From NCBI GenBank assembly GCA_045605205.1, contig JAZUPO010000229.1, positions 1-54,154 of the forward strand: a stretch of DNA of 54,154 nucleotides. Reading direction: 5' to 3'. Positions 4,738 through 49,138 of this stretch are shown piece after piece (position 1 is the stretch's first letter; every line of letters begins with the position of its first letter). The translations under genes and the position numbers were made by a program. The stretch comes from Victivallaceae bacterium. Lineage in GTDB: Bacteria > Verrucomicrobiota > Lentisphaeria > Victivallales > Victivallaceae. The notes below the pieces were generated by a model, which made no database searches, had not been told where the DNA came from, and saw only the letters and a program-made list of their open reading frames with translations.

Positions 4738-5783
4738 AGTTTGCTGCGGAAAAGTTTTGCCCGCAAAACATCCAGTTCGGCTTCAGGAAGAGCCAATCCG
4801 GAACGCATTTGCAAATGTCCCGGATTGAGCTCCATAAAAAGTTCATTGACTGTTGCGATTTTCAATTTTTTGAAAAGCCCCATATCAACTCCCAAACGGA
4901 GAGCAGACAAAGCCTCTGCAGCCTCATCAGCAGAAAGTTTGTAACAGCATTGCAGCATACCGAATGCACGGCCAACGTGATCAAGAAGTGCAAAACGATC
5001 CTGTTCCATCAAAGCACGGCGGGCACGGCGTTCATATTCCACTATCTGCCCTATTACAGCAGACAGCTGTTCGATGATATTCGCTTCACTTTCCCCCAAA
5101 GTCACCTGATTGGACACCTGATAAAGGCGACCGGTGTTATCGCTGCCTTCGCCGTATATGCCTCTGACGGCAAGTCCGAGTTTGTTGATACCGTGAATCG
5201 TCGGCAGGATCTGTTCAGTCATTACCAGCCCCGGCAGATGAAGCATAACAGATGCACGCATACCGGTTCCCACATTGGTGGGACAAGCTGTCAGATATCC
5301 CAAATCATCGCTCCAGGCAAAATCGAGAGAAGCGGCAAGTTCATCATCCAGAGCACTTACCTTTTTCCAACACTCTTCAAGCTGAAATCCGGGCATAAGA
5401 GCCTGTATCCGCAAATGATCCTCTTCGTTGATCATAACGGAACATCTTTCATCATCGCTGACAGCGAGAGCCGGAGATATTGAGGAGCTTATCAATTCGG
5501 AACTGGCCAGACGGCGTTCAAGAAGGAACTGTCTTTCCAGTTCATCCAACTGTGTGATATCAAAAAAACATCCCTGTTCCTGAAATGCAGAAACGGCACA
5601 GCATCCGGAACTTACGGCCGCAGCGACCTGAGCGGCACTTTCCTTGCTTGCACAGGAGGGGAAAGTCCATTCTGCAAGATTTCTTGAAAGCCGGATCCTG
5701 CTTGAAATACATATTCCGTCAGAAGAAGACGCGGTAAGAAAACTTGCCGGATTTTTCAGAAAACGAACGATATCCTGATTCAT
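4734..5783 (-). CDS. mcsB: Protein arginine kinase (ATP:guanido phosphotransferase)
   Basis: Motifs NEEDHLRIQ, CPTNVGTGMRASV and LGLAVRGIYGEGS are characteristic of McsB / phosphagen-kinase catalytic domains. The start overlaps the mcsA stop by 4 nt. Confidence 0.9.
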   Translation of the reverse strand: MNQDIVRFLKNPASFLTASSSDGICISSRIRLSRNLAEWTFPSCASKESAAQVAAAVSSGCCAVSAFQEQGCFFDITQLDELERQFLLERRLASSELISSSISPALAVSDDERCSVMINEEDHLRIQALMPGFQLEECWKKVSALDDELAASLDFAWSDDLGYLTACPTNVGTGMRASVMLHLPGLVMTEQILPTIHGINKLGLAVRGIYGEGSDNTGRLYQVSNQVTLGESEANIIEQLSAVIGQIVEYERRARRALMEQDRFALLDHVGRAFGMLQCCYKLSADEAAEALSALRLGVDMGLFKKLKIATVNELFMELNPGHLQMRSGLALPEAELDVLRAKLFRSKL

Positions 5784-6337
5784 TGTTCCCCTTCCCTGCT
5801 CTGCAAAGATTTTATTTCAGCTTTGAGGGCATTGATCCTGTCCCGGAATTGGGCTGCTTTTTCATATTCCTCTGCCGAAACAGCTCTGGCAAGGTCGAGT
5901 TGCAGCTGATCGATCTTAAGTTTCAAAGCAGACAAACTGCCAACAGAGGAAGCGGGACGTTTTCCCATATGGACCTTTCCGCGCTGAACTTGTTCAAGAG
6001 CTTTGTCCACCCATTTTGCGTAAACAGTATAACATCCGGCACACCCCAGCTTGCCGCCAGACTTCCGCATCTTGGCCAAAGTCCATTTGCAGTGGGGACA
6101 GACAACTTGCGGCGTTTTTTCTTTTGCATTGTCTCTTGCTGAAGATTTCTTAAGTTCGGGAGTCTTGCCGACATTAAAAATAACTTCAGCCAAATTGAAA
6201 CCGAAAGCTCCCAGGCCGCCTGCGAGTTCCTTTTCGCGGGCACACTCAGGACAAAGGTTCGTACTGATGCACTTACCGTCTTTGACTTCCTTTATATGAA
6301 TCGTGGCTTCTCTTTTTTTGCAAATATCGCACAGCAT
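5780..6337 (-). CDS. mcsA: McsA-like activator (two CxxC zinc-finger pairs plus C-terminal UVR motif)
   Basis: Zinc-finger motifs CDICK...CPECA and CPHCK...CAGCY are present. The C-terminal EEYEKAAQFRDRINALK is a UvrB/UvrC-type motif. The gene is coupled to mcsB. Confidence 0.8.
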   Translation of the reverse strand: MLCDICKKREATIHIKEVKDGKCISTNLCPECAREKELAGGLGAFGFNLAEVIFNVGKTPELKKSSARDNAKEKTPQVVCPHCKWTLAKMRKSGGKLGCAGCYTVYAKWVDKALEQVQRGKVHMGKRPASSVGSLSALKLKIDQLQLDLARAVSAEEYEKAAQFRDRINALKAEIKSLQSREGEQ

Positions 6338-6516: not shown

Positions 6517-8061
6517 TCAGATATTTTCAATAGCCCTTGCATATTTGCAGTAAAGAGCATAACGTTCGTCACAGTTACGCTGAGGCATATAGACCTTGCT
6601 GCATCCGGATTCCATAGCACGTTGGGCAGTAAAAATATCAGGATGCACCCCGGAGGCGGCTGCTCCGAACATAGCCGCCCCCAAAGCACAGGTTTGGTCA
6701 GAGTTGACGATCGCTATGGGCATATTCAAAGCGTCGGCACAAAACTGCATAACAAAAGGCGACTTCCTGGCGATTCCGCCGGTGGCTTTGACACTTTTGA
6801 TCTCAAGTTTCTGCTCTCTGAAACGCTCAAAAATGGCCCGGGTTCCAAATACAGTTGCTTCGACCAGAGCCCGGTAAACCATAGGCGGAGTTGTTCCCAA
6901 AGTCATACCGAAAACAGCTCCGGTCAAAAGAGGATTGGTATCAGGAGTTCTGCGGCCATTCATCCAATCGAGGGCACAAACCCGGGAATCCGGCAGCAAA
7001 GCAGCCTCTTTTTCCAGATCAGCAAGAGAAACTTTGCTGCCGCTCCATTCCAGAAAATGGCGGAACCAGGCATAAATATCGCCGAAAGCTGACTGGCCGG
7101 CTTCAAGTCCGGTAAGCCCGGGAAGCACAGAACCGTCCACCTGACCGCAAATGCCGGGGATACACCGTTCAATAGAAGGCATAACGATGATATCACAGGT
7201 TGAAGTCCCCATTACTTTGACCATTTCACCGGGAACGATCCCGGCCCCCACAGCTCCAACGTGGCAGTCGATAGCCCCCACCGCGATCACTGTCTCAGCG
7301 GGCAATCCCAAACGCTCCGCCCATTCGGGAGCGATTTTTCCCACAGGCGTATCAGCCGTAAAAGAATCATTACCTATCCGTTCCGGAAAATCCGCAAGCA
7401 ACGGATCGACGGCCCTGAAAAATTCAACCGGCGGCAAACCGCCCCAGGAAGCGTGCCAGAGAGCTTTATGCCCGGAGGCACAGCGGCTTTTCTTGACAGG
7501 AGATCCGGCGAGTACTCCCGTGATCCAGTCGCAAAGCTCCACAAAGCTCCATATTTTCTGCCGGACTTTTTCGTTATTTTTGAGAATGTGAAGCAATTTG
7601 CTCCAAAAAGACTCACAGGAATAAGTGCCTCCGGTGTACAAAGTGTAATCGACGGGGCTGTTACCGGCAACTTCATTGATCCGTTCGGATTCTTCAATGG
7701 CAGTATGATCTTTCCACAGCACAAACATCGCATCGGGATCATCTTTGAATTCCTCAGACAGACTCAAAGGGATCCCCTCCCGATCGACAGCACAGGGAGT
7801 GGAACTCGTTGTATCCACACCGATTCCTCTGACCAAACGTGCATCTCCGTGTTTCAGCACCTCTTTGATGACCTTTTCCATACATTCAAGATAGTCGAGC
7901 GGGTGCTGACGGAAGCGGAATTCCGCTGCATCGGAATATTTCCCTTCGCTCCAGCGAGGATAATACGCCACACTGTCAGCGATTTCTTTGCCGCAGGAAT
8001 CAATCAAAAGAGCTCTGACACTGTCGGAACCGAAATCCAGTCCTATGAGCAATTCATTCAT
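6517..8061 (-). CDS. araB: Ribulokinase (FGGY carbohydrate kinase)
   Basis: The N-terminus IGLDFGSDSVRALL..YPRW.., plus MFVLWKDHTA, GLEAGQSAFGDIYAWF and DWMNGRRTP, match E. coli AraB (recalled from memory) along the whole length. Confidence 0.9.
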   Translation of the reverse strand: MNELLIGLDFGSDSVRALLIDSCGKEIADSVAYYPRWSEGKYSDAAEFRFRQHPLDYLECMEKVIKEVLKHGDARLVRGIGVDTTSSTPCAVDREGIPLSLSEEFKDDPDAMFVLWKDHTAIEESERINEVAGNSPVDYTLYTGGTYSCESFWSKLLHILKNNEKVRQKIWSFVELCDWITGVLAGSPVKKSRCASGHKALWHASWGGLPPVEFFRAVDPLLADFPERIGNDSFTADTPVGKIAPEWAERLGLPAETVIAVGAIDCHVGAVGAGIVPGEMVKVMGTSTCDIIVMPSIERCIPGICGQVDGSVLPGLTGLEAGQSAFGDIYAWFRHFLEWSGSKVSLADLEKEAALLPDSRVCALDWMNGRRTPDTNPLLTGAVFGMTLGTTPPMVYRALVEATVFGTRAIFERFREQKLEIKSVKATGGIARKSPFVMQFCADALNMPIAIVNSDQTCALGAAMFGAAASGVHPDIFTAQRAMESGCSKVYMPQRNCDERYALYCKYARAIENI

Positions 8062-8073
8062 AAAGAAAACTCC

Positions 8074-8808
8074 TTATTTTTCAGAACCGGCGATCAGTCT
8101 CAAGAGGGCCTCAAGCATAACCGCCGGATGAGGAGGACACCCGGGAACATACATATCCACGGGCAAGACAGATTCCACGCCGCCCGCAGTCGTTCCGTCC
8201 CGGTACAGGCCTCCTGAAATGGCACACCCCCCCCCGGCAATAACGAAAGAGGGTTTAGGCATCGCATTATAGGTTTTTTCCAATGCAAGACGCATATTGT
8301 CGCTGACAGGTCCCGTTACCAACAGAGCATCTGCGTGGCGGGGAGAAGCAACGACCTGTATCCCGAAACGGCCGATATCCCAGGCGAGAGTATTCAGCAC
8401 ATTGAAATCCAGCTCACAAGCGGCACATCCGCCGGCTGAAACCTGACGGATCTTAAAGGACTTGCCGCAAAGTTTCCGCAATTCCGGGTTGGATGATTCC
8501 TTCCAGGGTTCAAGCCCGGGAACTTCAAGTGCTTCCTTTGAAAAAGCTCCCATACGGTATTCTCCGGAAAAACGGATCCCTTCAGGACAGACACCGGCAC
8601 ATTTACCGCAAAAAATACAACGGCCCAGATTGATCTTGCCATTTTCAGAAATGGCACTTACGGGACAGATCTGTTTTGCTTCTTCAGTGACCTTTTCGGG
8701 GTAGACTTCAGGACGACCGGCAAAGCGGTCAGGCAAAACAGGAGCAGTGGCAGGAAAAGTCCCGGTACGATATCCCTGACGCAGACGCGCCATAAATGCT
8801 TTCAACAT
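8074..8808 (-). CDS. NuoB/HycG-like small subunit with N-terminal half-ferredoxin module (Ehr/group-4 hydrogenase-like complex)
   Basis: The N-terminus carries CPVSAI...CIFCGKCAGVCPEG. The C-terminal part carries GGCAACELD, GGGCAISGG and PGCPPHP, which are the proximal 4Fe-4S ligands of NuoB/HycG. Confidence 0.85.
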   Translation of the reverse strand: MLKAFMARLRQGYRTGTFPATAPVLPDRFAGRPEVYPEKVTEEAKQICPVSAISENGKINLGRCIFCGKCAGVCPEGIRFSGEYRMGAFSKEALEVPGLEPWKESSNPELRKLCGKSFKIRQVSAGGCAACELDFNVLNTLAWDIGRFGIQVVASPRHADALLVTGPVSDNMRLALEKTYNAMPKPSFVIAGGGCAISGGLYRDGTTAGGVESVLPVDMYVPGCPPHPAVMLEALLRLIAGSEK

Positions 8809-8829
8809 CTTTTTTCAGCTCCTTATATT

Positions 8830-10290
8830 TTACAGATCGTGCCCGCAATAGGACAGATTGAAACTCTTGTTGCAGATAGGGAAATTTGAGATCTCTTCAT
8901 TTCTCAATGCCATTGCCAGACCGAACCAGTTGTGGAAAGAAGGATCAACGATCCTGCTTTGAGCAATGCCGCCTTTCTCATCGGTAACTGCGATCTGACA
9001 CAATTCTCCGCGCCACGCCCCGGTTATGGCAACTGCCAGTGAATTTTTCTGAAGTTTGTCTGCTTCAAAAGGTGTCATTACAGGGCCTTCGGCAAGATTC
9101 CGCAGATTTCTGTCGATAAAGTCAAGAGATGCAAAAATTTCATTATAACGGATCCTGGCTCTGCTCAGCACATCACCTGTGCCGCCGGGGACAGGTGCCG
9201 GAACATCCACCTTATAAAATCCGGCAGGCAATTCACGACGGACATCCATATCCATACCGGAAGCCCTCGCAGCACATCCCACAAGTCCTATGGAACGGGC
9301 CGTTTCAAGAGAAACACAACCGGTATTTTCAAAACGGTCAAGCACCGTGGGCGAATCGAACATCAAATCAAGAGCGTGTTTCAATTCAGGATTGATCCTG
9401 TCGAGCCACTTGAGCAGTTTCTCGCACCGGGCAGGTTCCACATCGTAACGCACGCCCCCCGGCTGAATGTAATTACGGCCGAAACGGTTGCCGCAGATTT
9501 CCGCAGTCATATTAAGATATTCACCTCTGATCCGTCCGCAGAAAGAAGCTGTGGGCAGATAAGCCACATCTCCGGCCAATGCCCCCAGATCACCGGTATG
9601 GTTTGCCACCCGTTCAAGTTCGATCATAAGGGCACGGAGCTGCTGAGCTCTGAGAGAGACATCTGTCCCGGAAAGAGCTTCAAAAAGAGAAGCTCCCCCT
9701 GTCGCAGCTGCGGCGGCACTGTCTCCTGCTGCCGATTCAAACAGCGGCAATGTTCTCGATGAAAAAGCTCCCTCAAGAAGTTTTTCAACACCCCGGGACT
9801 GATACCCAAGGGAGATTTCAAGAGAATAAACCTTTTCTCCCATACATTGAAAACGGAAATGTCCCGGCTCAATGACTCCGGCGTGAACAGGCCCCACTGC
9901 AACTTCATTGACCGCATCACCGGTCATCGTAAAGTACTCTCCGTCCGCCTTGCGAATGGGCTTCAGCCAGGGATGTCCCTGAGGCATATAGCCGTAACGC
10001 TCAAAAAGTTCCCGTTCAAACCAGTGAAACTGCGGAGCTTCAGGGGTAAGGGCGATATAATTTTTTTCTGCCCGGGCAGAGCCGCAATAGAGACACTGTT
10101 TTACGGAATCTATCATAAGGACAGTAAGCAATTCCTCTCCATCTTTGCGGAGCGGGAAAAGGGCTCCCACACGACATTTTTCATTTCCGACGGTGTCGAT
10201 CAACGTTTGTCTGAAATTGGCAAATTCAAGCACAGGTATCGCATCAAGGGAAACAGCACTGCAGTTTTTAAGTTCCAAAAAGTTTTTCAT
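8830..10290 (-). CDS. NuoC-NuoD / HycE-like large subunit lacking the NiFe cysteine ligands (Ehr-type)
   Basis: GPVHAGVIEPGHFRF and LIELERVANH are typical of HycE/NuoD. The L1 site reads ESAAGDSAAA instead of RxCGxCxxxH. The C-terminus reads SFNLSYCGHDL instead of DPCxxCxxR. The start is taken at ATG 10290, which makes an ATGA overlap with the upstream stop and has a GGAGG upstream. Confidence 0.85.
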   Translation of the reverse strand: MKNFLELKNCSAVSLDAIPVLEFANFRQTLIDTVGNEKCRVGALFPLRKDGEELLTVLMIDSVKQCLYCGSARAEKNYIALTPEAPQFHWFERELFERYGYMPQGHPWLKPIRKADGEYFTMTGDAVNEVAVGPVHAGVIEPGHFRFQCMGEKVYSLEISLGYQSRGVEKLLEGAFSSRTLPLFESAAGDSAAAAATGGASLFEALSGTDVSLRAQQLRALMIELERVANHTGDLGALAGDVAYLPTASFCGRIRGEYLNMTAEICGNRFGRNYIQPGGVRYDVEPARCEKLLKWLDRINPELKHALDLMFDSPTVLDRFENTGCVSLETARSIGLVGCAARASGMDMDVRRELPAGFYKVDVPAPVPGGTGDVLSRARIRYNEIFASLDFIDRNLRNLAEGPVMTPFEADKLQKNSLAVAITGAWRGELCQIAVTDEKGGIAQSRIVDPSFHNWFGLAMALRNEEISNFPICNKSFNLSYCGHDL

Positions 10291-11672
10291 TTCAACATTC
10301 CTCCGAACTTGGTCCAGAAATAAACCGCAAGAGCCAATGCGGCGACAAGCCCCGCAGCAGGAACCCAAATCAATTTTTCAGCCGGAGCGGCATCGACTTC
10401 AGCTTCTCCCGGCTTGCCCATCGTCATAGCAAGCACATTCTTTGTCATACCGGCAAAAATGATAAAAAGCAGAACTGCCACGGTCAAAGCCAACCACAAA
10501 GGTGCCGAACACAGCAATTTGAGCTCCGTTATAAACAACGGTGACGGCGGCACACCGCAAATCAGCAGCGTACCGGTCAGAAACAAAATAGCATTACGGG
10601 GCATAAGCGTGAAAAGTCCTGAAACTTTGCCGACCTGACGGGTCCCGCAGGCAAGAAGCAGGTTTCCGGCGAGCAGAAAGAGTGCCATCTTGACTGCTGA
10701 ATGAGCACACAAATGAGCGATCGTCAAATCCATACCGCACAGAGCAAAGATAATGGCAGCAATTCCCATATGTTCGATACTGCTGTAAGCAAGCATCCGT
10801 TTGAAATCCCCCTGATGAATGATGAAAAAGGCAGCAGTTGCCAATGAGATCACCCCCAGTACGATCATCAGATTTGAGCAAAAACTGCCGACCTGAGCCG
10901 GTGCCGCTGCTGCAAAACGGATTATTCCCACAAAGGAACAGTTGAGCAATCCTGCTGACAGCAAAGCTGACACAGCTCCCGGAGCTTCGCTGTGAGCATC
11001 GGGCAGCCAGGTGTGAAAGGGAGCCAGCCCCATCTTGGTACCGTATCCGGCAAGAGCCAGTACAAAGGCTGCCTTGTACCAACCGGGATCAAGGGAATTT
11101 TTGATCTTGAGAAACTCAGCGATCTGAAGATCGTGCAGCACAACTCCGCTGTTGCGGGCGGCAAAAGCAAGAAACAAAGTTCCCAGAAGTGCAAGACCGA
11201 TACCGACAGAACAGATCAGCAGATATTTCCACATAGCTTCAAGAGCCCTGCCGGAACGGTGAAACAGGATCAAAGGAGCACTGAAAAGCGTAGTTGCTTC
11301 GATCGCCACCCACATAACGCCGTAGTTTTGAGAAAACAGCACCAACGTCATCGTGGAAAGAAACAGAGGCAGGCAAATACCCAATACCATTTTTGATTTA
11401 TCTGAAGTTTCTTCTGCTTTGAGCCCAAAGGTACAATATACTGTGACAGCCAGATAAAGCAGTGAAGTCAGCAGCAGCAGCGTTGCCTCATAGTCCGACG
11501 TAAGGCCGATCCAGCGTCCGGCAAAACGCAGTTCAACACTTTTCAGGATGAATGCCAAATGCAAGAGGCTTCCTGACAGCAGCAAGGTACGGCTGTAAGT
11601 TCCTTTGAGCAGAGCAGCAGCCAGTGCGGTCAAAAGGGGGACTGTTATTGAAAGAATGGGAAACAGATTCAT
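10287..11672 (-). CDS. NuoN/NuoM/HyfF-like antiporter-type membrane subunit
   Basis: A 461-aa polytopic protein with Mrp/complex-I antiporter motifs (GLAPFHTWLPDAH, LAYSSIEHMG). Confidence 0.85.
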   Translation of the reverse strand: MNLFPILSITVPLLTALAAALLKGTYSRTLLLSGSLLHLAFILKSVELRFAGRWIGLTSDYEATLLLLTSLLYLAVTVYCTFGLKAEETSDKSKMVLGICLPLFLSTMTLVLFSQNYGVMWVAIEATTLFSAPLILFHRSGRALEAMWKYLLICSVGIGLALLGTLFLAFAARNSGVVLHDLQIAEFLKIKNSLDPGWYKAAFVLALAGYGTKMGLAPFHTWLPDAHSEAPGAVSALLSAGLLNCSFVGIIRFAAAAPAQVGSFCSNLMIVLGVISLATAAFFIIHQGDFKRMLAYSSIEHMGIAAIIFALCGMDLTIAHLCAHSAVKMALFLLAGNLLLACGTRQVGKVSGLFTLMPRNAILFLTGTLLICGVPPSPLFITELKLLCSAPLWLALTVAVLLFIIFAGMTKNVLAMTMGKPGEAEVDAAPAEKLIWVPAAGLVAALALAVYFWTKFGGMLK

Positions 11673-12335
11673 TTATTTACCCTCCCCGGTATCGGTCAAA
11701 AGATTCAAACGGTCAGCATCGATATGCTCGAATTCACGGCTGATCTGGAATACGGCGATCCCCATAACAAAGACAAGCACAAGAACGTCGAGCAAGATCC
11801 CCAGCTCCACAAAAAAGCCGTATTCAAGATGCATTGCCACCCCAAACAGTGCGATGCCGTTTTCAAAAGCAAGAAATCCCAACGCCTGAGTGATAGCCTT
11901 GCGGCGGGAAATGATAATAAACAAACCGGTAAAAACAGTCATTGCCGCAGCAGGCACCGCAAGAACGGGGACACCGGAAAGTTCAAGAGTACGGGAAAGC
12001 CAGAGGGCAAGAGTTCCCGCAATGGTAATGATCAGAAGCGACCAGGAATATCCGGCAAGGGGTTCAAGTTCACGCTTGACTCCGGCTTTATGCATTGCAC
12101 GCACCAGCATTACAGGAAGCAGCACACCCTTGACTGTAATATTGATCAAACTGGAAAGCCAGAATTCACATCCCGGGATACCGGATTCCCAATTCCACAT
12201 AAAGCAGGGCAGGATCCCCAGCAATATTCCCTGCAGAGCCACCAAACGGATGCAATGCAGCAGACGGCTGGAGGCACTGAGCAAAAGACACACCGCCATA
12301 AAGGCAGTAAGAATCAGATCGACTGTCATATTCAT
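11673..12335 (-). CDS. HyfE-like small membrane subunit
   Basis: FENGIALFGVA...VELGILLDVLVLVFVMGI resembles E. coli HyfE (MENGSHL...VEIGIATD, recalled from memory). The start is taken at ATG 12335, an ATGA overlap with the upstream stop. Confidence 0.75.
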   Translation of the reverse strand: MNMTVDLILTAFMAVCLLLSASSRLLHCIRLVALQGILLGILPCFMWNWESGIPGCEFWLSSLINITVKGVLLPVMLVRAMHKAGVKRELEPLAGYSWSLLIITIAGTLALWLSRTLELSGVPVLAVPAAAMTVFTGLFIIISRRKAITQALGFLAFENGIALFGVAMHLEYGFFVELGILLDVLVLVFVMGIAVFQISREFEHIDADRLNLLTDTGEGK

Positions 12336-13264
12336 TTGGAACCTCCCAAAAGAAGCAGCAGAGCCCAAGCTCCGAATTCAATACAAAATCCCCCCATAAG
12401 CATTTGAGGCACTTTAAGAAAACGGTATCTGGCCATCATAGATTCTGTGACACCCACTGCAACGGCAAGGATAAAACAAATACCGGTCATAACCAAAGTT
12501 CCCATCCAGGGAGAAAGAGCTCCGGCCGGAATGATCAGTGCCGCAAACATCGCACCGAAAATCCACAACTTGAGCCCTGCCCCGTAATGGATAAACGCCA
12601 AATCGGGACCGCTGTTATCGAGGATCATTGCTTCGTGGATCATCGTCAGCTCAAGATGGGTTTCAGGATCATCCACCGGCACACGGCAGCATTCAGTAAG
12701 AAGCACAACATACAAAGCCACAGCAGAAAGCACCATTGAAGGAGCAGCAGCTCCCCAGAAATCACAGGGACGGCCGCAAAGCATAACTGATAATTCACAG
12801 CTGCCGCTTTGTATGGCAAGGAAGGCCAGCAACAGCAGCAGTGTGCCTTCAGAGATCACAGAAAACTGCAATTCCCGGGCAGCTCCCATCCCTTCAAAAC
12901 TTGACGCTGTATCAAGAGCTCCGAGAACTGTCAGCATCCGTCCCAGTCCGAGAAGATAGAGAAAGAGCAGAGCATCCCCCTGAAATCCCAGGGGGGATTG
13001 AGCATATCCCAGAGGCAGAAAAAGCAGAGCCATAAGACAGGCGGCCAATGTCCCCACCGGAGCAATTCTGAAAATCCAGGTTGAACTGGTGCTGTAAACA
13101 GTGCCTTTACGCAGCAGTTTGAATATATCATACCAGGTCTGCATAATCCTGGGGCCTTTGCGTCCGGCAAAAAATGCTTTGACCTTATTGATCACCCCGA
13201 AAAGCACAGGGGCCAGGATCAATGCCAGCAATGCGTTGATAATAAAATATTTCATTTGTACCAC
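12332..13264 (-). CDS. NuoH/HycD/HyfC-like membrane subunit
   Basis: A 310-aa polytopic protein. Its N-terminus (GRKGPRIMQTWYDIFKLL) and its acidic loop (PVDDPETHLELTMIHEAM) are typical of HycD/NuoH. Confidence 0.85.
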   Translation of the reverse strand: MVQMKYFIINALLALILAPVLFGVINKVKAFFAGRKGPRIMQTWYDIFKLLRKGTVYSTSSTWIFRIAPVGTLAACLMALLFLPLGYAQSPLGFQGDALLFLYLLGLGRMLTVLGALDTASSFEGMGAARELQFSVISEGTLLLLLAFLAIQSGSCELSVMLCGRPCDFWGAAAPSMVLSAVALYVVLLTECCRVPVDDPETHLELTMIHEAMILDNSGPDLAFIHYGAGLKLWIFGAMFAALIIPAGALSPWMGTLVMTGICFILAVAVGVTESMMARYRFLKVPQMLMGGFCIEFGAWALLLLLGGSK

Positions 13265-13265
13265 C

Positions 13266-15098
13266 TCAACAAAGGATCGCCCAGACGATCATAGCAATAA
13301 GAGCTATGGTCATAATCAATACATACATATGAAGATATCCCGACTGGAACTTGTGGACCCGGTCAGATATCCCGGCAAAAAACTTGAACAGGGGAGCCCA
13401 GAAAAAACGTTCAGAGCCGTCAGGAGCGTTCCATTCAAAGGAGGCTTTTTCCGGGAAAAGTCCTTTGGGGGGCTCCACTTTGCGGCGGATCCGCAAAAAG
13501 CCGTTGAACAAATCGGCAAGAGCCTGTACCACAGCACTGCCGGTATACTCCATTCTGGCTGTAGGTTTGGCATAGCCGCAATCCCAAGTGGGACCGGAAA
13601 GATTTTCTCTTCCCCGTACCAAAACGTATCTCCGCCAGAAAAAACCCCAGGCACACAAAGCGTAAAACACCGCAGAAAAAATTGCAGCCAGCCACAGGAT
13701 ATCCACAACTTTTCTGCCGACGGGAAGACCTTTCAACAGAAATTCCCCTGCCAACGGTGCAGCAAAAACACTCAAAACAGCAAAACTCAGCAGAACGATC
13801 ATCGGCACATACATCCAGGGGGATTCTTTACCGCACTCTGAGATCTGCCGGGGTTCCCCGAGAAAAGTTCCGCCCACAGCCTTGGCAAAAGCAACCACGG
13901 CACAGGCACCGGTAAGACTGAGCACAAGTGCACAGAGGATCCCCGCCCCGCGGAGCATCATCGAATTTGAACAGATCCCGGCAAAAGCAGCAAGATATAT
14001 CATCAATTCCCCGATGAAGCCGTTAAAAGGCGGAAGTCCGGAAATCCCCAGAGAGGCCAGGGTGAAACAACTTCCGGTAACCGGTGTCTTTTTCATCATT
14101 CCGCCCATTTTATCAATGGAAAGAGTCCCCCTTGAACAATACACCTGCCCTGCCCCCAAAAACAACGTCCCCTTAAGCAGAGCGTGATTGATGATATGCA
14201 ATACAAATCCCAATCCGGCAAAAACAACCATTTCTGTGTGTTGATTGTGAGCTGCAAGAAACACACTCCCGAGAGCGATGGAAATGATCCCCATATTCTC
14301 AATACTGCTGTATGCAAGAAGCCGCTTCAAATTGTCCTGAGCAAAAGCAAAGACGATCCCCCCGAGACTTCCGATGCAGCCGAGGATCAGCAGCGTCCAT
14401 CCGAAAAATGCAAAAGGCGACTGAAGCAATGCCGCTTCAGGAAATACAAAATTCAAGATCCCCCAGAAACCGAGATTGATCATCGCTCCCGACATAATGG
14501 CCGACACGGGAGCAGGAGCCGCCGGATGAGCTTCAGGCAGCCAGAGATGAAGCAGAGGGAATCCGGCTTTCAATCCGAAGCCGGCCATTCCGATGGCGAT
14601 AAGCAGATATCCGGGAACTCCCGCCTTATGGGCAAGTGCCCAAAAGAGCATCAGCAGCACTCCTCCGGCTTCACAGGCAAGCAGATAGATCCAAGCCACC
14701 CGTTTAAGTTCTTCAGCTTTGTAATTGAACATCACCAGCACAAAACTGAAAATCCCCATAAGCTCCCAGACGATCAGAAAAGGAACAAACTCTGAGATCA
14801 AAGGCAAAGCCAGCATCGTCGCCACAGTCAAATTAAAAAATCCCCAGTAGATCCCGGGATTACCGTGCCCCTTGATGTATGCAAGTGAATGAAAGGCAGC
14901 AGCAGGAGCCAATATAAGAGTCGGCAGCATAAAGAGAGCCGCCAAGCCCGGCTGCGAGATACATATACCGGCCAGTCCGGTGACGGCGGCAATAAGTGTT
15001 CCGGCAATTCCCACCGCTCCGGCAAGATTGCCCCACCGGCAACAAAGCAAAGCCAACACACCGGCGATGGCTGCTGTGCCTGCACTCCAATAAATCAT
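13266..15098 (-). CDS. NuoL/HyfB/HycC-like antiporter-type membrane subunit
   Basis: A 610-aa polytopic protein with GFPLLHLWLPEAHPAAP and LAYSSIENMG motifs. It is the first gene of the operon and has a GGAGGT RBS. Confidence 0.85.
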   Translation of the reverse strand: MIYWSAGTAAIAGVLALLCCRWGNLAGAVGIAGTLIAAVTGLAGICISQPGLAALFMLPTLILAPAAAFHSLAYIKGHGNPGIYWGFFNLTVATMLALPLISEFVPFLIVWELMGIFSFVLVMFNYKAEELKRVAWIYLLACEAGGVLLMLFWALAHKAGVPGYLLIAIGMAGFGLKAGFPLLHLWLPEAHPAAPAPVSAIMSGAMINLGFWGILNFVFPEAALLQSPFAFFGWTLLILGCIGSLGGIVFAFAQDNLKRLLAYSSIENMGIISIALGSVFLAAHNQHTEMVVFAGLGFVLHIINHALLKGTLFLGAGQVYCSRGTLSIDKMGGMMKKTPVTGSCFTLASLGISGLPPFNGFIGELMIYLAAFAGICSNSMMLRGAGILCALVLSLTGACAVVAFAKAVGGTFLGEPRQISECGKESPWMYVPMIVLLSFAVLSVFAAPLAGEFLLKGLPVGRKVVDILWLAAIFSAVFYALCAWGFFWRRYVLVRGRENLSGPTWDCGYAKPTARMEYTGSAVVQALADLFNGFLRIRRKVEPPKGLFPEKASFEWNAPDGSERFFWAPLFKFFAGISDRVHKFQSGYLHMYVLIMTIALIAMIVWAILC

Positions 15099-15136
15099 AA
15101 TACGCTTTTACCTCCACGTTTTTTGAGCATCTTATT

Positions 15137-15165
15137 AATATACCACCAAACAGGAGTTTTTTCAA
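15137..15165 (-). promoter_or_regulatory. Putative promoter of the Ehr-like operon (TTGAAA-17-TGgTATATT)
   Basis: A -35 hexamer, 17-nt spacer and extended -10 on the minus strand, about 40 nt upstream of ATG 15098. Confidence 0.45.
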
Positions 15166-15178
15166 TAACAAAAGCGTA

Positions 15179-15952
15179 TCAGAACATCAATTTGTAAAGT
15201 AAATTTCCCCCGAGCATAACCCCGGCAACAATAAGCACAGTATAAACAAGAAAGGTAAATTTCCGTTGATCCGCTTTGTTATGCAGATAGTCCCCAAACA
15301 TCATACCGGCGGCAATAAAGGGAAGCATTCCCAGGATCATCCGCCCCATTTGCGGTGTCCATACCGTACCGGACAACGTCCATTTGGCAACCATAACCGT
15401 ATTGGTCGTCAGCCACAGGGAACTTAAAACAGCCCGGAACCTTGATTTTTCTTTCAAGGCTTTTGACGCATACATCACAACCACCGGCCCGCCGGAACTG
15501 AAAGCCCCCTGAATAATGCCTCCGGTAAAAAGTACGATACGGGAAAGGAAACTCTTTTTTGCAGGGATTTCAGATACAACAGCACATTTCTTTGAACGTA
15601 ACGAAAGCAATCCCCTGATCCCCACAAAAAACATAAAGCAGACCAACAGTGCAATAAGCCATTCTTTGGGCAAACTGTCCATCATAAAAAGTCCGACGGG
15701 CACTCCCAGCCCGACGTGAAGAACAATAAATCCGTATTCCCGCCAATCCAAATCACGCCGGGAACGCAGCACAATAAACAGTGAAAGCAAGATGCTCAGA
15801 GATGAAAGTACCGGAACCGCCTTGTCCACACCGATTAGCATAGCAATAAAAGGCAGAGCCATAACAGTCGATCCGAAACCGGCGATACCTTCAACAGTAA
15901 AGGTAGTAAAGACCACACTTCCGGCAATAAGTACGATCAGCCATTCATTCAT
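15179..15952 (-). CDS. TauE/SafE-family anion exporter membrane protein
   Basis: A polytopic ~257-aa protein with a GFGST motif and an internal repeat. ATG 15952 is chosen because the predicted promoter (15984-16012) lies inside the longer TTG-initiated ORF. Confidence 0.7.
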   Translation of the reverse strand: MNEWLIVLIAGSVVFTTFTVEGIAGFGSTVMALPFIAMLIGVDKAVPVLSSLSILLSLFIVLRSRRDLDWREYGFIVLHVGLGVPVGLFMMDSLPKEWLIALLVCFMFFVGIRGLLSLRSKKCAVVSEIPAKKSFLSRIVLFTGGIIQGAFSSGGPVVVMYASKALKEKSRFRAVLSSLWLTTNTVMVAKWTLSGTVWTPQMGRMILGMLPFIAAGMMFGDYLHNKADQRKFTFLVYTVLIVAGVMLGGNLLYKLMF

Positions 15953-15983
15953 AAAAAAATCTGCTCCCTGAAAAAATTTTCTT

Positions 15984-16012
15984 AATATACTTCTCAATCT
16001 CTGTTTTTGCAA
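15984..16012 (-). promoter_or_regulatory. Putative promoter of the TauE-family gene (TTGCAA-17-TATATT)
   Basis: Minus-strand hexamers. The promoter is divergent from the one at 16023-16051. Confidence 0.4.
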
Positions 16013-30456: not shown

Positions 30457-31566
30457 ATGAACATTCTTATCATCGGCGGCGGCGTTGCCGCCTATGAAGC
30501 GGCTCTCGGGGCCGCTGAAAATCCAACGTGCCATATCACCGTCTGTTCCAATGAATCAGTCCGCCCTTACCGCCGGCCGGCACTTTCACGGATGGTGGCA
30601 GAAGAAATTTCAGATAGTGCCTTTTATTTCAAGCAGGCTGCTTTTTATCAGGAACACAACATTGATCTGAAACTGAATAAAACAGCTGTTTCCATCAATA
30701 AAGAAGAAAAAAATGTCACCTTTGAAGATGGGGATGTTCTTTCCTATGACCGCTTGATTCTTGCCGCAGGCGGCCACTCTTTTGTGCCTCCCGTTCCGGG
30801 AGCGGAATATGCCCATACATTCCGGGATTACCGGGATCTGGAATTGTTCCGCCGGAAACTTGACTCAGGCATCACTGATGCGGTCGTCATCGGTGCGGGC
30901 GTTCTTGGACTGGAACTTGCAGATTCTCTCATTGCCAAAGGATGCAATGTCACACTCGTTGAAGCCAAAGATACACTTTTGTCACGCAACCTTGATCCGG
31001 AAAGTTCAGCTGTTGTTATGAAGCATCTGCGAGGTGTTCCGGGAGTTACTGTCAAAAACAACAGCCGGGTCCTTGAGATCACGCCTGACAGCGTTATCCT
31101 CGAAAATGAAACGCTCTCCTCAGAGTTGACCGTATTTTCAACAGGTATCAGAAGCAATACAAATTTGGCCCTGAGTGCAGGCTTGACCGTCAACAGAGGG
31201 ATCGTTGTGGATGACCGGATGATAACTTCTGACTCCTCTATTTTCTGCTGCGGCGACGCTGCTGAACCGCCCTCAGGTTGTACCGGGCTGCTTCCTGCTG
31301 CCAAATCGATGGGCCATATTGCGGGAGTCAATGCGGCGGGCGGCAGTGAACATTTTGTTCCTGAAGCCTACCCCATCCGGCTTATGGCTCTGGGGCTCAA
31401 ACTTTTCGCTGCCGGAAAAACAGCAGATGCCTCCTCAGAAATTTCCCGGGATGAAAACGGCAATTATCAACGGCTGACCCGGAACAAAGAAGGAAAACTT
31501 ACCGGAATAATCCTCATAGGCGACCTGAAATCTGCCGTCAGACTGCAAAAGGAGATGGTCTGTTGA
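30457..31566 (+). CDS. FAD-dependent pyridine nucleotide-disulfide family oxidoreductase
   Basis: ILIIGGGVAAYEAA is the FAD GxGxxA motif, VVIGAGVLGLELA is the NAD site, and CCGDAAE is the distal FAD motif. Confidence 0.8.
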   Translation: MNILIIGGGVAAYEAALGAAENPTCHITVCSNESVRPYRRPALSRMVAEEISDSAFYFKQAAFYQEHNIDLKLNKTAVSINKEEKNVTFEDGDVLSYDRLILAAGGHSFVPPVPGAEYAHTFRDYRDLELFRRKLDSGITDAVVIGAGVLGLELADSLIAKGCNVTLVEAKDTLLSRNLDPESSAVVMKHLRGVPGVTVKNNSRVLEITPDSVILENETLSSELTVFSTGIRSNTNLALSAGLTVNRGIVVDDRMITSDSSIFCCGDAAEPPSGCTGLLPAAKSMGHIAGVNAAGGSEHFVPEAYPIRLMALGLKLFAAGKTADASSEISRDENGNYQRLTRNKEGKLTGIILIGDLKSAVRLQKEMVC

Positions 31567-46246: not shown

Positions 46247-46264
46247 CTGTATTTCTCCACGTTA

Positions 46265-47152: not shown

Positions 47153-47164
47153 CCTTGTTTTAAT

Positions 47165-49114: not shown

Positions 49115-49138
49115 TTGTTCACCTCGCGAGCTGTTTTT

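What the first reader, a model, noticed from the sequence alone, without database searches (positions are those of the whole stretch)
8074..15165. Complex-I / group-4-hydrogenase-like six-subunit operon whose catalytic subunit has lost all four NiFe ligands (Ehr-type)
The gene order is NuoL/HyfB-like, NuoH/HyfC-like, HyfE-like, NuoN/HyfF-like, NuoCD/HycE-like, NuoB/HycG-like. The genes are tightly coupled, with two ATGA overlaps. In the large subunit, the N-terminal ligand motif (RxCGxCxxxH in HycE-type enzymes) reads FESAAGDSAAAAA (about nt 9700-9738). The C-terminal DPCxxCxxR reads SFNLSYCGHDL (nt 8833-8865). The four ligand positions are therefore Ala, Ser, Ser and Gly. The small subunit keeps its 4Fe-4S cysteines. 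No hyp/hyc maturation genes, formate dehydrogenase or CO dehydrogenase are nearby. This matches the energy-converting hydrogenase-related (Ehr) class described bioinformatically as a link between group 4 hydrogenases and complex I. To my knowledge its substrate and acceptor are unknown.
Basis: partly seen in the sequence, partly recalled or inferred. Interest (0 to 1): 0.65.

Follow-up and report, generated by a model that had tools for sequence, protein, structure and literature searches.

The report
Nickel-free hydrogenase-like membrane complex (Ehr)
This is an intact, expressed six-gene operon for an "Ehr" complex in an uncultured gut Lentisphaeria bacterium: a membrane ion-pump relative of hydrogenases and respiratory complex I that has lost its nickel-iron site, belongs to a class described since 2005, and still has no known reaction.

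Summary
Six tightly packed minus-strand genes (8074-15098) encode HyfB/NuoL-like, NuoH-like, HyfE-like, HyfF/NuoN-like, HycE/NuoCD-like and NuoB-like proteins.

In the large subunit the four Ni-Fe cysteine positions are Ala, Ser, Ser and Gly. The small subunit keeps its four cluster cysteines.

The operon belongs to the known Ehr family (ehrABCDLS, named in Geobacter). Its large subunit is 45-50% identical to Geobacter-type EhrL and carries the same replacement motifs. The same gene order was found in at least 589 species genomes from many phyla. Lentisphaerae members were already placed in an Ehr clade in 2019.

The operon is not a relic. dN/dS is 0.04-0.11, the proton-relay residues of both antiporter-like subunits are kept, and metatranscriptome contigs cover it.

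- The small subunit is a fusion of a HycF/NuoI-type ferredoxin domain with NuoB. This lineage has lost the outer of that domain's two clusters.
- The complex I quinone ligands Tyr and His are absent.
- Five cysteines specific to this clade are nearly invariant.
- The rhizobial Hyq "endo-hydrogenase" is a sister clade that also lacks the Ni-Fe ligands.

Most likely it is a ferredoxin-fed, redox-driven ion pump with an unidentified acceptor. It is a new member of a known kind, of moderate interest.

The parts
15137..15165 (-). Promoter-like site (TTGAAA, 17 nt, TG-TATATT) upstream of ehrA, followed by a GGAGG ribosome-binding site
   Evidence: Best sigma-70-type match in 7800-15400: 10 of 12 positions, with an extended -10 TG. 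Sequence read. This is a consensus match only, not shown to be functional.
13266..15098 (-). ehrA: HyfB/NuoL-type antiporter-like membrane subunit (610 aa)
   Evidence: PF00361 3e-31; hydrogenase-4 subunit B model 4e-103. Relay residues kept: E112 (TM5), K177 (TM7), H301/H305/K309 (TM11), E364 (TM12). The TM8 position is Asn here and Lys in most of the family.
12332..13264 (-). ehrB: NuoH/HycD/HyfC-type membrane subunit (310 aa from GTG; an ATG three codons downstream is the alternative start)
   Evidence: PF00146 5e-31. Family-specific TM5-6 loop RxPxDDPxTHLELTMIHE replaces PFDxxEAEQEL of NuoH/HycD. The ES.MAR motif is shared with HycD.
11673..12335 (-). ehrC: HyfE-like membrane subunit (220 aa), whose C-terminal half is NuoK-like
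   Evidence: NCBIfam hydrogenase-4 membrane subunit HyfE 8e-16. Conserved membrane carboxylates (ENG, VE..LLD) align with HyfE. The ATG start overlaps the ehrB stop as ATGA.
10287..11672 (-). ehrD: HyfF/NuoN-type antiporter-like membrane subunit (461 aa)
   Evidence: PF00361 2e-44; HyfF models to 3e-80. E125, K213, H320/H324/K328 and E383 are kept.
8830..10290 (-). ehrL: large subunit (486 aa), a NuoC-like N-terminal domain fused to a HycE/NuoD-like domain, without Ni-Fe ligands
   Evidence: Best solved relative by sequence is HycE 7z0s_E at 1.3e-36. By fold it is also HycE, TM 0.82. The ATG start overlaps the ehrD stop. In 318 non-identical family members the protein ends at ...GxDL with no C-terminal tail.
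9703..9741 (-). Replacement of the N-terminal Ni-Fe motif: FESAAGDSAAAAA, where HycE has SDRVCGICGFAHS
   Evidence: Cys1 is replaced by Ala188 and Cys2 by Ser191. Gly189 is invariant; it is where NuoD has the quinone Tyr. Asp190 is 317/318 conserved.
8833..8865 (-). Replacement of the C-terminal Ni-Fe motif: SFNLSYCGHDL-stop, where HycE has SLDPCYSCTDR plus a tail
   Evidence: Cys3 is replaced by Ser480 (317/318) and Cys4 by Gly483 (317/318). Cys482 is 315/318 conserved.
8074..8808 (-). ehrS: small subunit (244 aa), a HycF/NuoI-like ferredoxin domain (aa 1 to about 100) fused to a NuoB/HycG-like domain (aa about 105-244)
   Evidence: PF01058 2e-27 for aa 128-237. Fer4 and FHL iron-sulfur subunit models match aa 1-96. 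HycF 7z0s_F residues 9-105 align to aa 9-93. HycG 7z0s_G is the top fold match for the C-terminal half. All four N2-type cysteines are present.
8509..8808 (-). Ferredoxin-like domain of EhrS that retains only one complete [4Fe-4S] ligand set (C48-P49 plus C64, C67, C70)
   Evidence: The first motif is EKVTEEAKQICP, where HycF has CIGCAACVNACP. The full first motif is present in 63 of 71 genome orthologues. It is lost in the close relatives L084 and L086 and in 52 of the 119 nearest database homologues.
15179..16012 (-). TauE/SafE-family membrane protein gene directly upstream. It is a neighbour, possibly co-transcribed, and not part of the conserved module.
   Evidence: PF01925 5e-23. The synteny is kept in the 81%-identical relative L084 but absent from the 80 genome loci. 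One metatranscriptome contig spans 14629-15977.
6517..8061 (-). FGGY carbohydrate kinase gene 12 nt downstream of ehrS with its own GGAG site. It is a neighbour, possibly co-transcribed, and not part of the conserved module.
   Evidence: PF02782/PF00370. Junction sequence read; no terminator-like site between the genes. The synteny is kept only in L084.

Best explanation
This is an ehrABCDLS operon: an Ech/energy-converting-hydrogenase-related complex of an uncultured gut Lentisphaeria bacterium.

Shown here:
- It encodes a complete six-subunit membrane complex that is under selection and transcribed.
- It has two antiporter-like subunits with intact Glu/Lys/His relays, a NuoH-like subunit and a HyfE/NuoK-like subunit.
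- Its HycE-like large subunit has none of the four Ni-Fe cysteines and neither of the complex I quinone ligands (Tyr, His).
- Its small subunit carries an N2-type [4Fe-4S] site fused to a HycF/NuoI-type ferredoxin domain. In this lineage that domain keeps only one of its two clusters.

Inferred:
- It works as a redox-driven, probably reversible, ion pump in the manner of Ech and Mbh.
- A soluble low-potential donor, most likely reduced ferredoxin, docks on the ferredoxin-like domain of EhrS.
- Electrons pass through its one remaining cluster to the N2-type cluster.
- They leave to an acceptor bound in the remodelled pocket at the EhrL/EhrS/EhrB interface. That pocket is lined by the invariant residues Glu141, His144, Asp190, Asp241 and Cys482.
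- The charge change there is relayed through EhrB and EhrC to the two antiporter-like subunits, which move H+ or Na+.
- The acceptor is not H+ at a Ni-Fe centre. Its identity is not established. A membrane quinone bound in a non-canonical way is my first guess.

My confidence that this is an Ehr family member is about 0.9. My confidence in the ferredoxin-fed ion-pump mechanism is about 0.45.
For: Subunit identities.

Ligand loss: two independent alignment methods, and 318 family members.

Orthology to Geobacter-type EhrL: 45-50% identity with the same motifs. The Geobacter subunit nomenclature matches (PMC7894505).

Conservation of the module: the order A-B-C-D-L-S is conserved in nearly all of the loci long enough to show it, among the 80 retrieved, and at least 589 species genomes matched.

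Purifying selection: dN/dS is 0.04-0.11 for all six genes against an 81%-identical relative.

Ion-translocation residues: the TM5 Glu, TM7 Lys, TM11 His-His-Lys and TM12 Glu are kept in both antiporter-like subunits.

Electron path: the N2-type cysteines are kept. The ligand set made of the first-motif CP cysteine and the first three second-motif cysteines is kept in 71/71 orthologues. The other set is lost repeatedly, sometimes together with its fourth ligand. This pattern is expected if the invariant cluster is the wire to N2.

No partner dehydrogenase: none is conserved next to the operon in the 80 loci or present in the window. This is the situation in ferredoxin-dependent Ech and Mbh (established knowledge).

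Expression: gut metatranscriptome contigs cover most of the operon. Ehr proteins are detected in G. sulfurreducens (PMC7894505).
Against: No biochemical data exist for any Ehr. Donor, acceptor, ion and direction are all inferred by analogy.

The canonical quinone ligands are missing: Gly189 and Ile140 are invariant. A quinone acceptor would therefore need a new binding mode.

The AlphaFold monomer model has confidence below 50 exactly at the pocket (residues 111-152 and 471-486), so the cavity could not be examined.

Whether this organism makes quinones, ferredoxin-reducing enzymes or Hyp proteins cannot be seen from a 54-kb window.

Metatranscriptome contigs can contain DNA, and contig depth is a poor measure of expression.

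The assignment of the retained cluster as the N2-proximal one rests on the standard cross-ligation topology of 2x[4Fe-4S] ferredoxins and on the loss pattern. It was not checked on a structure.
Confidence: 0.6

Rival explanations
1. It is a Ni-Fe-independent "endo-hydrogenase", as claimed for the sister Hyq complex of Azorhizobium. On this view the remodelled large subunit still turns over H2 (H2:quinone oxidoreductase, reversible) using an unidentified catalytic site.
For: Hyq has the same six-gene order, and HyqG also lacks both CxxC motifs (PMC3357923).

It shares the GPVHAGxIEPGHFRF, xGD(S/T) and FPxCNKSFNxSYxGxDL motifs and two of the conserved cysteines with the window protein.

An hyq operon deletion grew more slowly when fixing N2, which the authors read as loss of H2 recycling (PMC2650096), and H2 evolution in microaerobic culture was attributed to this enzyme (PMC3357923).

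Glu141, the counterpart of the HycE/MbhL loop glutamate, is invariant.
Against: The Hyq evidence is genetic and physiological only; no purified enzyme or cofactor has been shown, and its authors themselves call a Ni-Fe site in HyqG "uncertain, if not unlikely" (PMC3357923).

The window protein is only 33% identical to HyqG, against 45-50% to Geobacter-type EhrL.

EhrS has a ferredoxin domain that the Rhizobium HyqI lacks.

No hyp genes are in the window.

From established knowledge, no biological H2 catalyst is known without a Ni-Fe, Fe-Fe or Fe-guanylylpyridinol cofactor.
Confidence: 0.1
2. It is an Mrp-like cation/proton antiporter in which the Fe-S clusters no longer carry a catalytic electron flow. 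Instead they sense the redox state and gate transport. There is no substrate turnover at the large subunit.
For: Both known kinds of catalytic ligand set at the large-subunit pocket (Ni-Fe cysteines, quinone Tyr/His) are gone, while the antiporter machinery is intact.

The outer cluster is dispensable in many lineages, and the Rhizobium HyqI has no ferredoxin domain at all.

In 30 loci of other phyla the operon is preceded by an HTH plus PTS-EIIA(Ntr-type) regulator. Relatives of that domain control K+ homeostasis in E. coli (established knowledge).

In relative L086 a Na+-symporter (SNF) gene follows ehrS after 5 nt.
Against: The pocket residues and five cysteines of EhrL are nearly invariant across phyla, and EhrS is the most constrained subunit (dN/dS 0.04). 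This argues for a demanding chemical role rather than a mere sensor.

True Mrp antiporters manage without any NuoB/NuoD-like module (established knowledge).
Confidence: 0.12
3. It is a sulfane-sulfur/polysulfide or thiol-disulfide reductase in the manner of Pyrococcus Mbs (Mbx). Chemistry would occur at the proximal cluster and/or at the clade-specific cysteines of EhrL.
For: EhrL has five nearly invariant cysteines that are absent from HycE, HyfG and NuoCD, and one of them (C482) lies next to a former Ni ligand position.

A TauE/SafE-family gene (Pfam's name for it: sulfite exporter) lies upstream here and in a close relative.
Against: MbsL (6u8y_L) is a much weaker match (5e-14) than HycE (1e-36).

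The subunit composition differs: there are no extra Mrp subunits.

The paralogous ligand-less clusters in L029 and L071 lack these cysteines.

The TauE neighbour is confined to close relatives.

Whether the cysteines lie close together in space could not be tested.
Confidence: 0.1
4. It is a decaying, non-functional remnant of a group 4 hydrogenase, as a 2026 paper assumes for the Ehr of Geobacter strain KN400.
For: All four catalytic ligands are lost. One cluster's ligands in EhrS are lost too. PMC13194489 treats Ehr as already non-functional.
Against: All six reading frames are intact and translationally coupled.

dN/dS is 0.04-0.11.

The replacement motifs themselves are invariant in 318 sequences from many phyla.

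Gene order is conserved in the loci retrieved from at least 589 matching genomes.

The operon is transcribed here, and the proteins are abundant in G. sulfurreducens grown on formate (PMC7894505).
Confidence: 0.02

Closest known systems
Ehr (Ech-hydrogenase-related / energy-converting-hydrogenase-related) complex, ehrA(-A2)BCDLS of Geobacter sulfurreducens GSU0739-45. Named by Coppi 2005 and surveyed by Marreiros et al. 2013 (both cited through PMC7894505, PMC4758237 and PMC13194489).
   Same: Same subunit set and order. The large subunit lacks Ni-Fe ligands and has the same ETAAGD(S/T) and CNKSFNLSYCGxDL motifs, at 45-50% identity to Geobacter-type EhrL. The small subunit has a fused ferredoxin-like domain and all N2-type cysteines.
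   Different: There is a single EhrA here, where G. sulfurreducens has ehrA-1 and ehrA-2 (PMC7894505, PMC13194489) and about a dozen of the retrieved loci also carry two EhrA genes. The outer ferredoxin-type cluster of EhrS is lost. There is no HTH-EIIA regulator gene upstream. The host is a fermentative gut Lentisphaeria rather than a metal-respiring bacterium.
Hyq "endo-hydrogenase" of Azorhizobium caulinodans and rhizobia (hyqRBCEFGI; PMC2650096, PMC3357923)
   Same: Six structural genes in the same order. The large subunit lacks both CxxC pairs. It shares the GPVHAGxIEPGHFRF, xGD(S/T) and FPxCNKSFNxSYxGxDL motifs and the cysteines equivalent to C251 and C473.
   Different: Only 33% identity to the window EhrL. 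The motifs are GRTSGDSTVAY and ...FNCSYSGHDL. The Rhizobium HyqI is 177 aa with no ferredoxin domain. Hyq is part of the nif regulon, and in vivo H2 turnover is claimed for it.
E. coli formate hydrogenlyase / hydrogenase-4 (Hyc, Hyf; group 4a [NiFe]-hydrogenases; PDB 7z0s)
   Same: This is the closest solved structure for both the large subunit (1e-36, TM 0.82) and the small subunit. The gene order HyfB-C-(D)-E-F-G-(H)-I is mirrored. The HycE-type loop EPGHFR with its glutamate is kept.
   Different: There are no Ni-Fe ligands, no C-terminal tail for HycI processing, and no hycI, hyp or formate dehydrogenase genes. HycF (or HyfH) is not a separate protein: it is shortened to about 100 residues and fused to the small subunit. 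There is no HyfD, HyfA or HycB.
Respiratory complex I / NDH-1 (NuoB, CD, H, K, L, M, N)
   Same: A homologous core of NuoB, NuoCD and NuoH plus antiporter-like subunits with the same relay residues. The aspartate equivalent to Thermus Nqo4 Asp139 is kept (Asp241, 317/318).
   Different: The quinone-binding Tyr and His are replaced by invariant Gly189 and Ile140. There are no NuoEFG, NuoA or NuoJ subunits, and only two antiporter-like subunits. Sequence similarity is lower than to HycE.
Pyrococcus furiosus Mbs/Mbx (PDB 6u8y)
   Same: A group-4 hydrogenase relative that no longer makes H2 and is thought to react at or near its proximal cluster (my memory of the literature).
   Different: It is a much weaker sequence match (MbsL 5e-14). 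It has 13 subunits including an Mrp module and retains some of the Ni-Fe cysteines (my memory of the literature).

Membership tests
Ehr complex (ehrABCDLS) | Operon of NuoL/HyfB-like, NuoH-like, HyfE-like, NuoN/HyfF-like, large and small subunit genes, in that order | tested here: met
   The same order holds in nearly all of the loci long enough to show it, among 80 retrieved. The subunit names match PMC7894505.
Ehr complex (ehrABCDLS) | Large subunit lacks the N- and C-terminal CxxC Ni-Fe ligands | tested here: met
   The positions are Ala188, Ser191, Ser480 and Gly483. In 318 family members they are A/S, T/S, S and G.
Ehr complex (ehrABCDLS) | Small subunit keeps the four cysteines of the proximal [4Fe-4S] cluster | tested here: met
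   GGCAACE, GGGCAISGG and PGCPP are present.
Ehr complex (ehrABCDLS) | Orthology to the Geobacter EhrL in which the family was named | tested here: met
   45% identity over the full length to the Geobacter grbiciae protein (E 2e-147) and 50% over aligned columns to a Geobacteraceae MAG, against 33% to HyqG and 27% to HycE. The G. sulfurreducens protein itself was not in hand.
Group 4 [NiFe]-hydrogenase (Hyc/Hyf/Ech/Mbh) | RxCGxCxxxH and DPCxxCxx(R/H) motifs that bind Ni-Fe | tested here: not met
   All four cysteines, the Arg and the His are replaced in the window protein. The four cysteines and the Arg are replaced across the family, but the His position is still His in 198 of 318 members.
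Group 4 [NiFe]-hydrogenase (Hyc/Hyf/Ech/Mbh) | Fold and subunit architecture of the membrane-bound hydrogenase module | tested here: met
   HycE and HycG are the top matches by sequence and fold.
Group 4 [NiFe]-hydrogenase (Hyc/Hyf/Ech/Mbh) | H2 evolution or uptake; Hyp-dependent maturation | not testable with these tools
   No hyp or hycI gene is in the 54-kb window. The rest of the genome was not available.
Respiratory complex I / NDH-1 | Quinone head-group ligands of NuoD (Thermus Nqo4 Tyr87 and His38) | tested here: not met
   They align with Gly189 and Ile140, which are invariant or nearly so in 318 sequences. Only the Asp139 equivalent (Asp241) is kept.
Respiratory complex I / NDH-1 | Eleven to fourteen core subunits, including NuoA, NuoJ, separate NuoI and three antiporter-like subunits | tested here: not met
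   Six genes only, with two antiporter-like subunits and a NuoI-like domain fused to NuoB.
Hyq endo-hydrogenase | Orthology to HyqG/HyqI of rhizobia (a plain 177-aa HyqI in Rhizobium; HyqG motifs SGDSxVA and FNCSYSGHDL) | tested here: not met
   33% identity. The cysteine pattern differs and the small subunit has an extra domain. It is a sister clade, not the same family.
Mbs/Mbx sulfane reductase | Thirteen-subunit complex with an Mrp module; large subunit close to MbsL | tested here: not met
   6u8y_L scores 5e-14 against 1e-36 for HycE. The subunit set differs.

The most novel reading that the evidence does not exclude
The Ehr/Hyq superfamily has not simply lost its active site. It may have built a new one without nickel. 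Nearly invariant Glu141, His144, Asp190 and Asp241 (and Cys149/251/266/473/482 within the Ehr clade; the Hyq-like paralogues lack most of these cysteines) would bind an as yet unknown cofactor or extra Fe-S centre, or form a redox-active thiol site. That site would catalyse a reaction coupled to ion pumping. The reaction could even be the H2 turnover claimed for Hyq, or reduction of an unrecognised acceptor common to anaerobes and aerobes.
Probability: 0.15. Interest if true: 0.85.

Novelty: new member of a known kind. Interest (0 to 1): 0.4.

Why it matters
Ehr complexes are widespread: at least 589 species-level genomes matched in one scan, from gut fermenters to Geobacter, Planctomycetota and Acidobacteriota. 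They sit between hydrogenases and complex I in evolution. Even so, no one knows what reaction they catalyse, and a 2026 paper still dismisses one of them as non-functional.

This window adds a clean, selected and transcribed example from animal-gut Lentisphaeria. With its relatives it gives concrete handles for experiments:
- a two-cluster minimal electron path in EhrS;
- a defined set of invariant pocket residues and cysteines to mutate;
- a regulatory link to an HTH-PTS-EIIA protein in other phyla.

If the acceptor were identified, it would fill a gap in the energy budgets drawn for many uncultured anaerobes. It would also test ideas on how complex I acquired quinone chemistry.

Tried and rejected
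1. AlphaFold2 of EhrL from a 14-sequence alignment. The overall model is good (pLDDT 79, pTM 0.84), but confidence is below 50 at residues 111-152 and 471-486, the former active-site elements. No coordinates are returned either. I therefore could not test whether the five conserved cysteines cluster or whether a quinone-like cavity exists.
2. Marreiros et al. 2013 could not be read because it is not held. Its content is cited only through other papers.
3. A paper search for EhrL/EhrS was swamped by \"electronic health records\".
4. A search for Victivallis plus menaquinone gave nothing useful on whether these bacteria make quinones.
5. I looked for a conserved partner dehydrogenase (FDH, CODH, NuoEFG) beside the operon in 80 loci. 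None was found; the only recurrent neighbour is an HTH-EIIA regulator. The FDH-Ehr idea of PMC6349859 gets no support from these neighbourhoods.
6. I tested whether the upstream TauE gene is a family-wide partner. There was no hit in the 80 genome loci; it occurs only in the near relative L084.
7. Reading the C-terminal Cys482 as a shifted Ni ligand was rejected. It is a single cysteine, the other three positions never hold Cys in more than 3 of 318 sequences, and there is no CxxC pair.
8. The absence of a C-terminal processing tail is noted but not used as evidence. From established knowledge, some true group 4 hydrogenases (Ech, Coo) also lack one.

Full report
**What is in the sequence**

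Between 8074 and 15098 the minus strand carries six long ORFs with almost no spacing. Pfam and NCBIfam identify them in transcription order:
- a HyfB/NuoL-type antiporter-like protein (610 aa);
- a NuoH/HyfC-type protein (310 aa);
- a HyfE-like protein (220 aa from the ATG at 12335);
- a HyfF/NuoN-type antiporter-like protein (461 aa);
- a large subunit related to NuoD, with a weak NuoC-like N-terminus (486 aa from the ATG at 10290);
- a 244-aa protein whose C-terminal half is NuoB/HycG-like.

The junction sequences confirm two ATGA start/stop overlaps, ehrB/ehrC and ehrD/ehrL. They also show a TAAATG abutment, a 1-nt gap, and a 21-nt gap with an AAGGAG site. The best sigma-70-like match in the region (TTGAAA, 17 nt, TG-TATATT, 15165-15137) lies just upstream of the first gene.

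**The ligand claim**

phmmer against the PDB finds E. coli HycE (7z0s_E, 1.3e-36) as the best solved relative, followed by MbhL, Thermus Nqo4 and, much further down, MbsL. In that alignment, and in MAFFT alignments with HycE, HyfG and NuoCD taken from E. coli K-12:
- HycE's DRVCGICGFAH is matched by ESAAGDSAAAA;
- HycE's DPCYSCTDR is matched by NLSYCGHDL, followed by the stop codon.

I then collected 318 non-identical family members: 240 database proteins plus 80 genome loci. At those positions they read A/S (Cys in 3), T/S/A, S (317) and G (317). None has a C-terminal extension. The small subunit retains GGCxxCE, GxCAxxGG and PGCPP.

**Which family**

The closest database proteins are from Lentisphaeria, Lentisphaerota and Victivallaceae MAGs. 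The contig is found in goat, pig and other gut or faecal metagenomes.

They span Lentisphaerota, Verrucomicrobiota, Kiritimatiellia, Planctomycetota, Desulfobacterota including Geobacteraceae and Desulfuromonadaceae, Acidobacteriota, Myxococcota, Omnitrophota, Riflebacteria, Elusimicrobia, Spirochaetes and Hydrogenedentota. In the 80 loci retrieved, the order A-B-C-D-L-S is conserved in nearly every locus long enough to show it. About a dozen loci have two EhrA genes, as does G. sulfurreducens, which has EhrA-1 and ehrA-2 (PMC7894505, PMC13194489).

The window's large subunit is 45% identical over its full length to the Geobacter grbiciae protein and 50% (over aligned columns) to a Geobacteraceae MAG protein, with the same replacement motifs. 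This is the Ehr family. It was named in Geobacter ("Ech-hydrogenase-related"; large subunit EhrL, small subunit EhrS, HyfE-like EhrC; PMC7894505) and generalised as "energy-converting hydrogenase-related complexes" (cited in PMC4758237 and PMC6349859). Lentisphaerae sequences had already been seen in an Ehr clade in 2019 (PMC6349859).

**It is not a relic**

A 2026 paper treats the Geobacter Ehr as already non-functional (PMC13194489). The evidence here says otherwise:
- Against an 81%-identical relative with the same synteny (L084), dN/dS is 0.089, 0.113, 0.057, 0.094, 0.095 and 0.038 for EhrA, B, C, D, L and S. Synonymous sites are close to saturation.
- The replacement motifs themselves are invariant across phyla.
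- Contigs assembled from a gut metatranscriptome cover most of the operon at depths similar to its neighbours. The caveat is that such contigs can include DNA.
- In G. sulfurreducens all Ehr subunits are detected and are more abundant with formate (PMC7894505).

**Anatomy relevant to mechanism: membrane subunits**

Both antiporter-like subunits keep the canonical relay. These are the TM5 Glu (E112, E125), the TM7 Lys (K177, K213), the TM11 His-His-Lys and the TM12 Glu (E364, E383). They align with E. coli NuoL/M/N, HyfB/D/F and HycC.

EhrB has the NuoH fold. Its TM5-6 loop is family-specific: PxDDPxTHLELTMIHE, where NuoH and HycD have PFDxxEAEQEL. EhrC keeps the membrane carboxylates of HyfE.

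**Anatomy relevant to mechanism: the small subunit**

The small subunit is a fusion. Residues 9-93 align with residues 9-105 of HycF (7z0s_F, 4e-08) and with MbhN and NuoI. The N-terminal domain is modelled with high confidence, and HycG is the top fold match for the rest.

In 63 of 71 genome orthologues this domain has two full cysteine motifs, so it would hold two [4Fe-4S] clusters. The window protein reads EKVTEEAKQICP where the first motif should be, so only the CP cysteine is left. The same loss is present in relatives at 81% and 61% large-subunit identity and in 52 of the 119 nearest homologues. In 17 of those 52, the fourth cysteine of the second motif is gone as well.

In a standard 2x[4Fe-4S] ferredoxin, the lost residues are the four ligands of one cluster. 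The set that is always retained (first-motif CP plus the first three second-motif cysteines) ligates the other cluster. I infer that the retained cluster is the one next to the N2-type cluster, and that this lineage has a two-cluster wire. This inference rests on ferredoxin topology and on the loss pattern; it was not checked on a structure.

**Anatomy relevant to mechanism: the large-subunit pocket**

The large-subunit pocket matches neither hydrogenases nor complex I.
- The NuoD quinone Tyr aligns with invariant Gly189.
- Thermus Nqo4 His38 aligns with Ile140 (317/318).
- The Asp139 equivalent is kept (Asp241, 317/318).
- The hydrogenase-type loop EPGHFR, with Glu141 and His144, is invariant.
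- Asp190 is 317/318 conserved.
- Five cysteines absent from HycE, HyfG and NuoCD are nearly invariant: C149 (318/318), C251 (317), C266 (311), C473 (307) and C482 (315).

I could not establish whether these cysteines lie together in space. The monomer model is unreliable exactly at 111-152 and 471-486.

**Context**

No hyp, hycI, formate dehydrogenase, CO dehydrogenase, nuoEFG or rnf gene was found among the ORFs scanned across the 54-kb window.

Across the 80 loci no dehydrogenase partner recurs. The only recurrent neighbour is a gene of about 230 aa encoding HTH_17 plus PTS_EIIA_2. It lies immediately upstream on the same strand in 30 loci of other phyla. It is absent from the window and from the Lentisphaeria loci I inspected.

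The operon thus looks self-contained, like ferredoxin-dependent Ech or Mbh.

**A sister clade with an experimental claim**

Rhizobial plasmids carry a six-gene cluster with the same order. This is the Hyq "endo-hydrogenase" of Azorhizobium and rhizobia (PMC2650096, PMC3357923).

HyqG also lacks both CxxC pairs. It shares the GPVHAGxIEPGHFRF, xGD(S/T) and FPxCNKSFNxSYxGxDL motifs and the cysteines equivalent to C251 and C473. However, it is only 33% identical to the window protein, and the Rhizobium HyqI has no ferredoxin domain. Paralogous clusters that also lack the Ni-Fe ligands, and whose large subunits are nearer to HyqG than to EhrL, sit beside Ehr in a Geobacteraceae MAG and a Verrucomicrobia MAG. 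A second group-4-like cluster, whose large subunit I did not examine, lies next to an Ehr-type cluster on a Variovorax plasmid.

The Hyq papers report a diazotrophic growth defect of an hyq operon deletion and attribute H2 recycling and microaerobic H2 evolution to the enzyme, without a purified enzyme. Their authors doubt that a Ni-Fe site exists. This is the only functional claim in the wider group, and I keep it as a rival at about 0.1.

**Most likely mechanism**

The evidence taken together is:
- intact Fe-S wiring that ends at an N2-type cluster;
- intact ion-translocation machinery;
- a highly constrained but remodelled pocket;
- no attached dehydrogenase.

The best-supported reading is a redox-driven, probably reversible, ion pump. 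Reduced ferredoxin, or a similar soluble carrier, donates to the ferredoxin-like domain of EhrS. Electrons reach the N2-type cluster and then an acceptor in the EhrL/EhrS/EhrB pocket. The resulting charge change drives H+ or Na+ movement through EhrB, EhrC, EhrD and EhrA.

The parts list, the conservation and the ligand states are shown. The donor, the acceptor, the coupling ion and the direction are inferred. The acceptor is not H+ at a Ni-Fe site. A quinone is plausible for most host phyla but would need a non-canonical binding mode.

The rivals are a redox-gated Mrp-like antiporter, an Mbs-like sulfur or thiol reductase, a Ni-free hydrogenase of the Hyq kind, and a relic. The last is effectively refuted.

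**Verdict**

The finding is real and correctly interpreted, but the class is already described and the function remains open. The window itself does not make that question more testable, because the host is uncultured. The family-wide features extracted here do give specific targets for work in Geobacter: the EhrS fusion and its minimal two-cluster form, the invariant pocket residues and cysteines, the link to an EIIA-type regulator, and the relation to Hyq. Interest is 0.4.

Noticed in passing
L012:4140-4850, L055:2272-2952, L076:2331-3008 and 27 other loci (not in the window): In 30 Ehr loci from Verrucomicrobiota, Planctomycetota, Desulfobacterota, Acidobacteriota and other phyla, a gene of about 230 aa lies directly upstream of ehrA on the same strand (median gap 7 nt). 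It encodes an HTH_17 DNA-binding domain fused to a PTS EIIA-2 (PtsN-like, GIAIPH) domain. This suggests PTS(Ntr)-type control of the operon. The window and the Lentisphaeria loci I inspected lack it.
   Followed up: partly
L029:13257-20575; L071:2250-9986; L089:14514-19341: A second, paralogous group-4-like cluster sits right next to the Ehr cluster in a Geobacteraceae MAG, a Verrucomicrobia MAG and a Variovorax plasmid. In the two MAGs its large subunit also lacks the Ni-Fe ligands (RVSGDTTVAH ... CNKSFNASYSGHDL), is nearer to HyqG than to EhrL, and lacks most of the five Ehr-clade cysteines. The large subunit of the Variovorax cluster lies beyond the fetched stretch and was not examined.
   Followed up: partly
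L086:12267-13643: In a 61%-identical Lentisphaeria relative, a sodium:neurotransmitter-symporter-family (SNF) gene starts 5 nt after ehrS. This hints at a link to a Na+ gradient. It was seen in one lineage only.
   Followed up: no
window 15179-16012 and 6517-8061; L084: A TauE/SafE-family membrane protein gene upstream and an FGGY sugar-kinase gene 12 nt downstream flank the operon. The same flanks occur in the 81%-identical relative. A metatranscriptome contig spans the tauE-ehrA junction (14629-15977), so the transcription unit may be longer than six genes.
   Followed up: partly
window 43109-51850: A type I restriction-modification system lies here in a region of lower G+C (0.39-0.45 against about 0.48). 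It comprises HsdR (1045 aa), HsdS and HsdM. A Fic/Bro-N gene (46265-47152) and two ORFs that gave no clear Pfam match (47184-47915 with none; 49182-49850 with only a sub-threshold hit) are interleaved. It is probably a mobile defence island.
   Followed up: no
window 4734-6337: An McsA-like (UVR motif, CxxC-rich) and McsB-like (ATP:guanido phosphotransferase) gene pair is present, i.e. the protein-arginine-kinase system best known from Firmicutes. The synteny with DUF2079 is kept in relative L084.
   Followed up: no
window 9497-9563: One low-depth DNA contig from gut metagenome run X1 skips 65 bases inside ehrL. This would be frame-breaking. It is probably a minor strain variant or an assembly artefact; the main contig of the same run is continuous.
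   Followed up: no
window 30457-31566: A rubredoxin-reductase-like pyridine-nucleotide-disulphide oxidoreductase (Pyr_redox_2 plus Rubredoxin_C) follows a VUPS/PAS histidine kinase. It is the only other obvious redox enzyme found in the window. Nothing links it to the Ehr operon.
   Followed up: no
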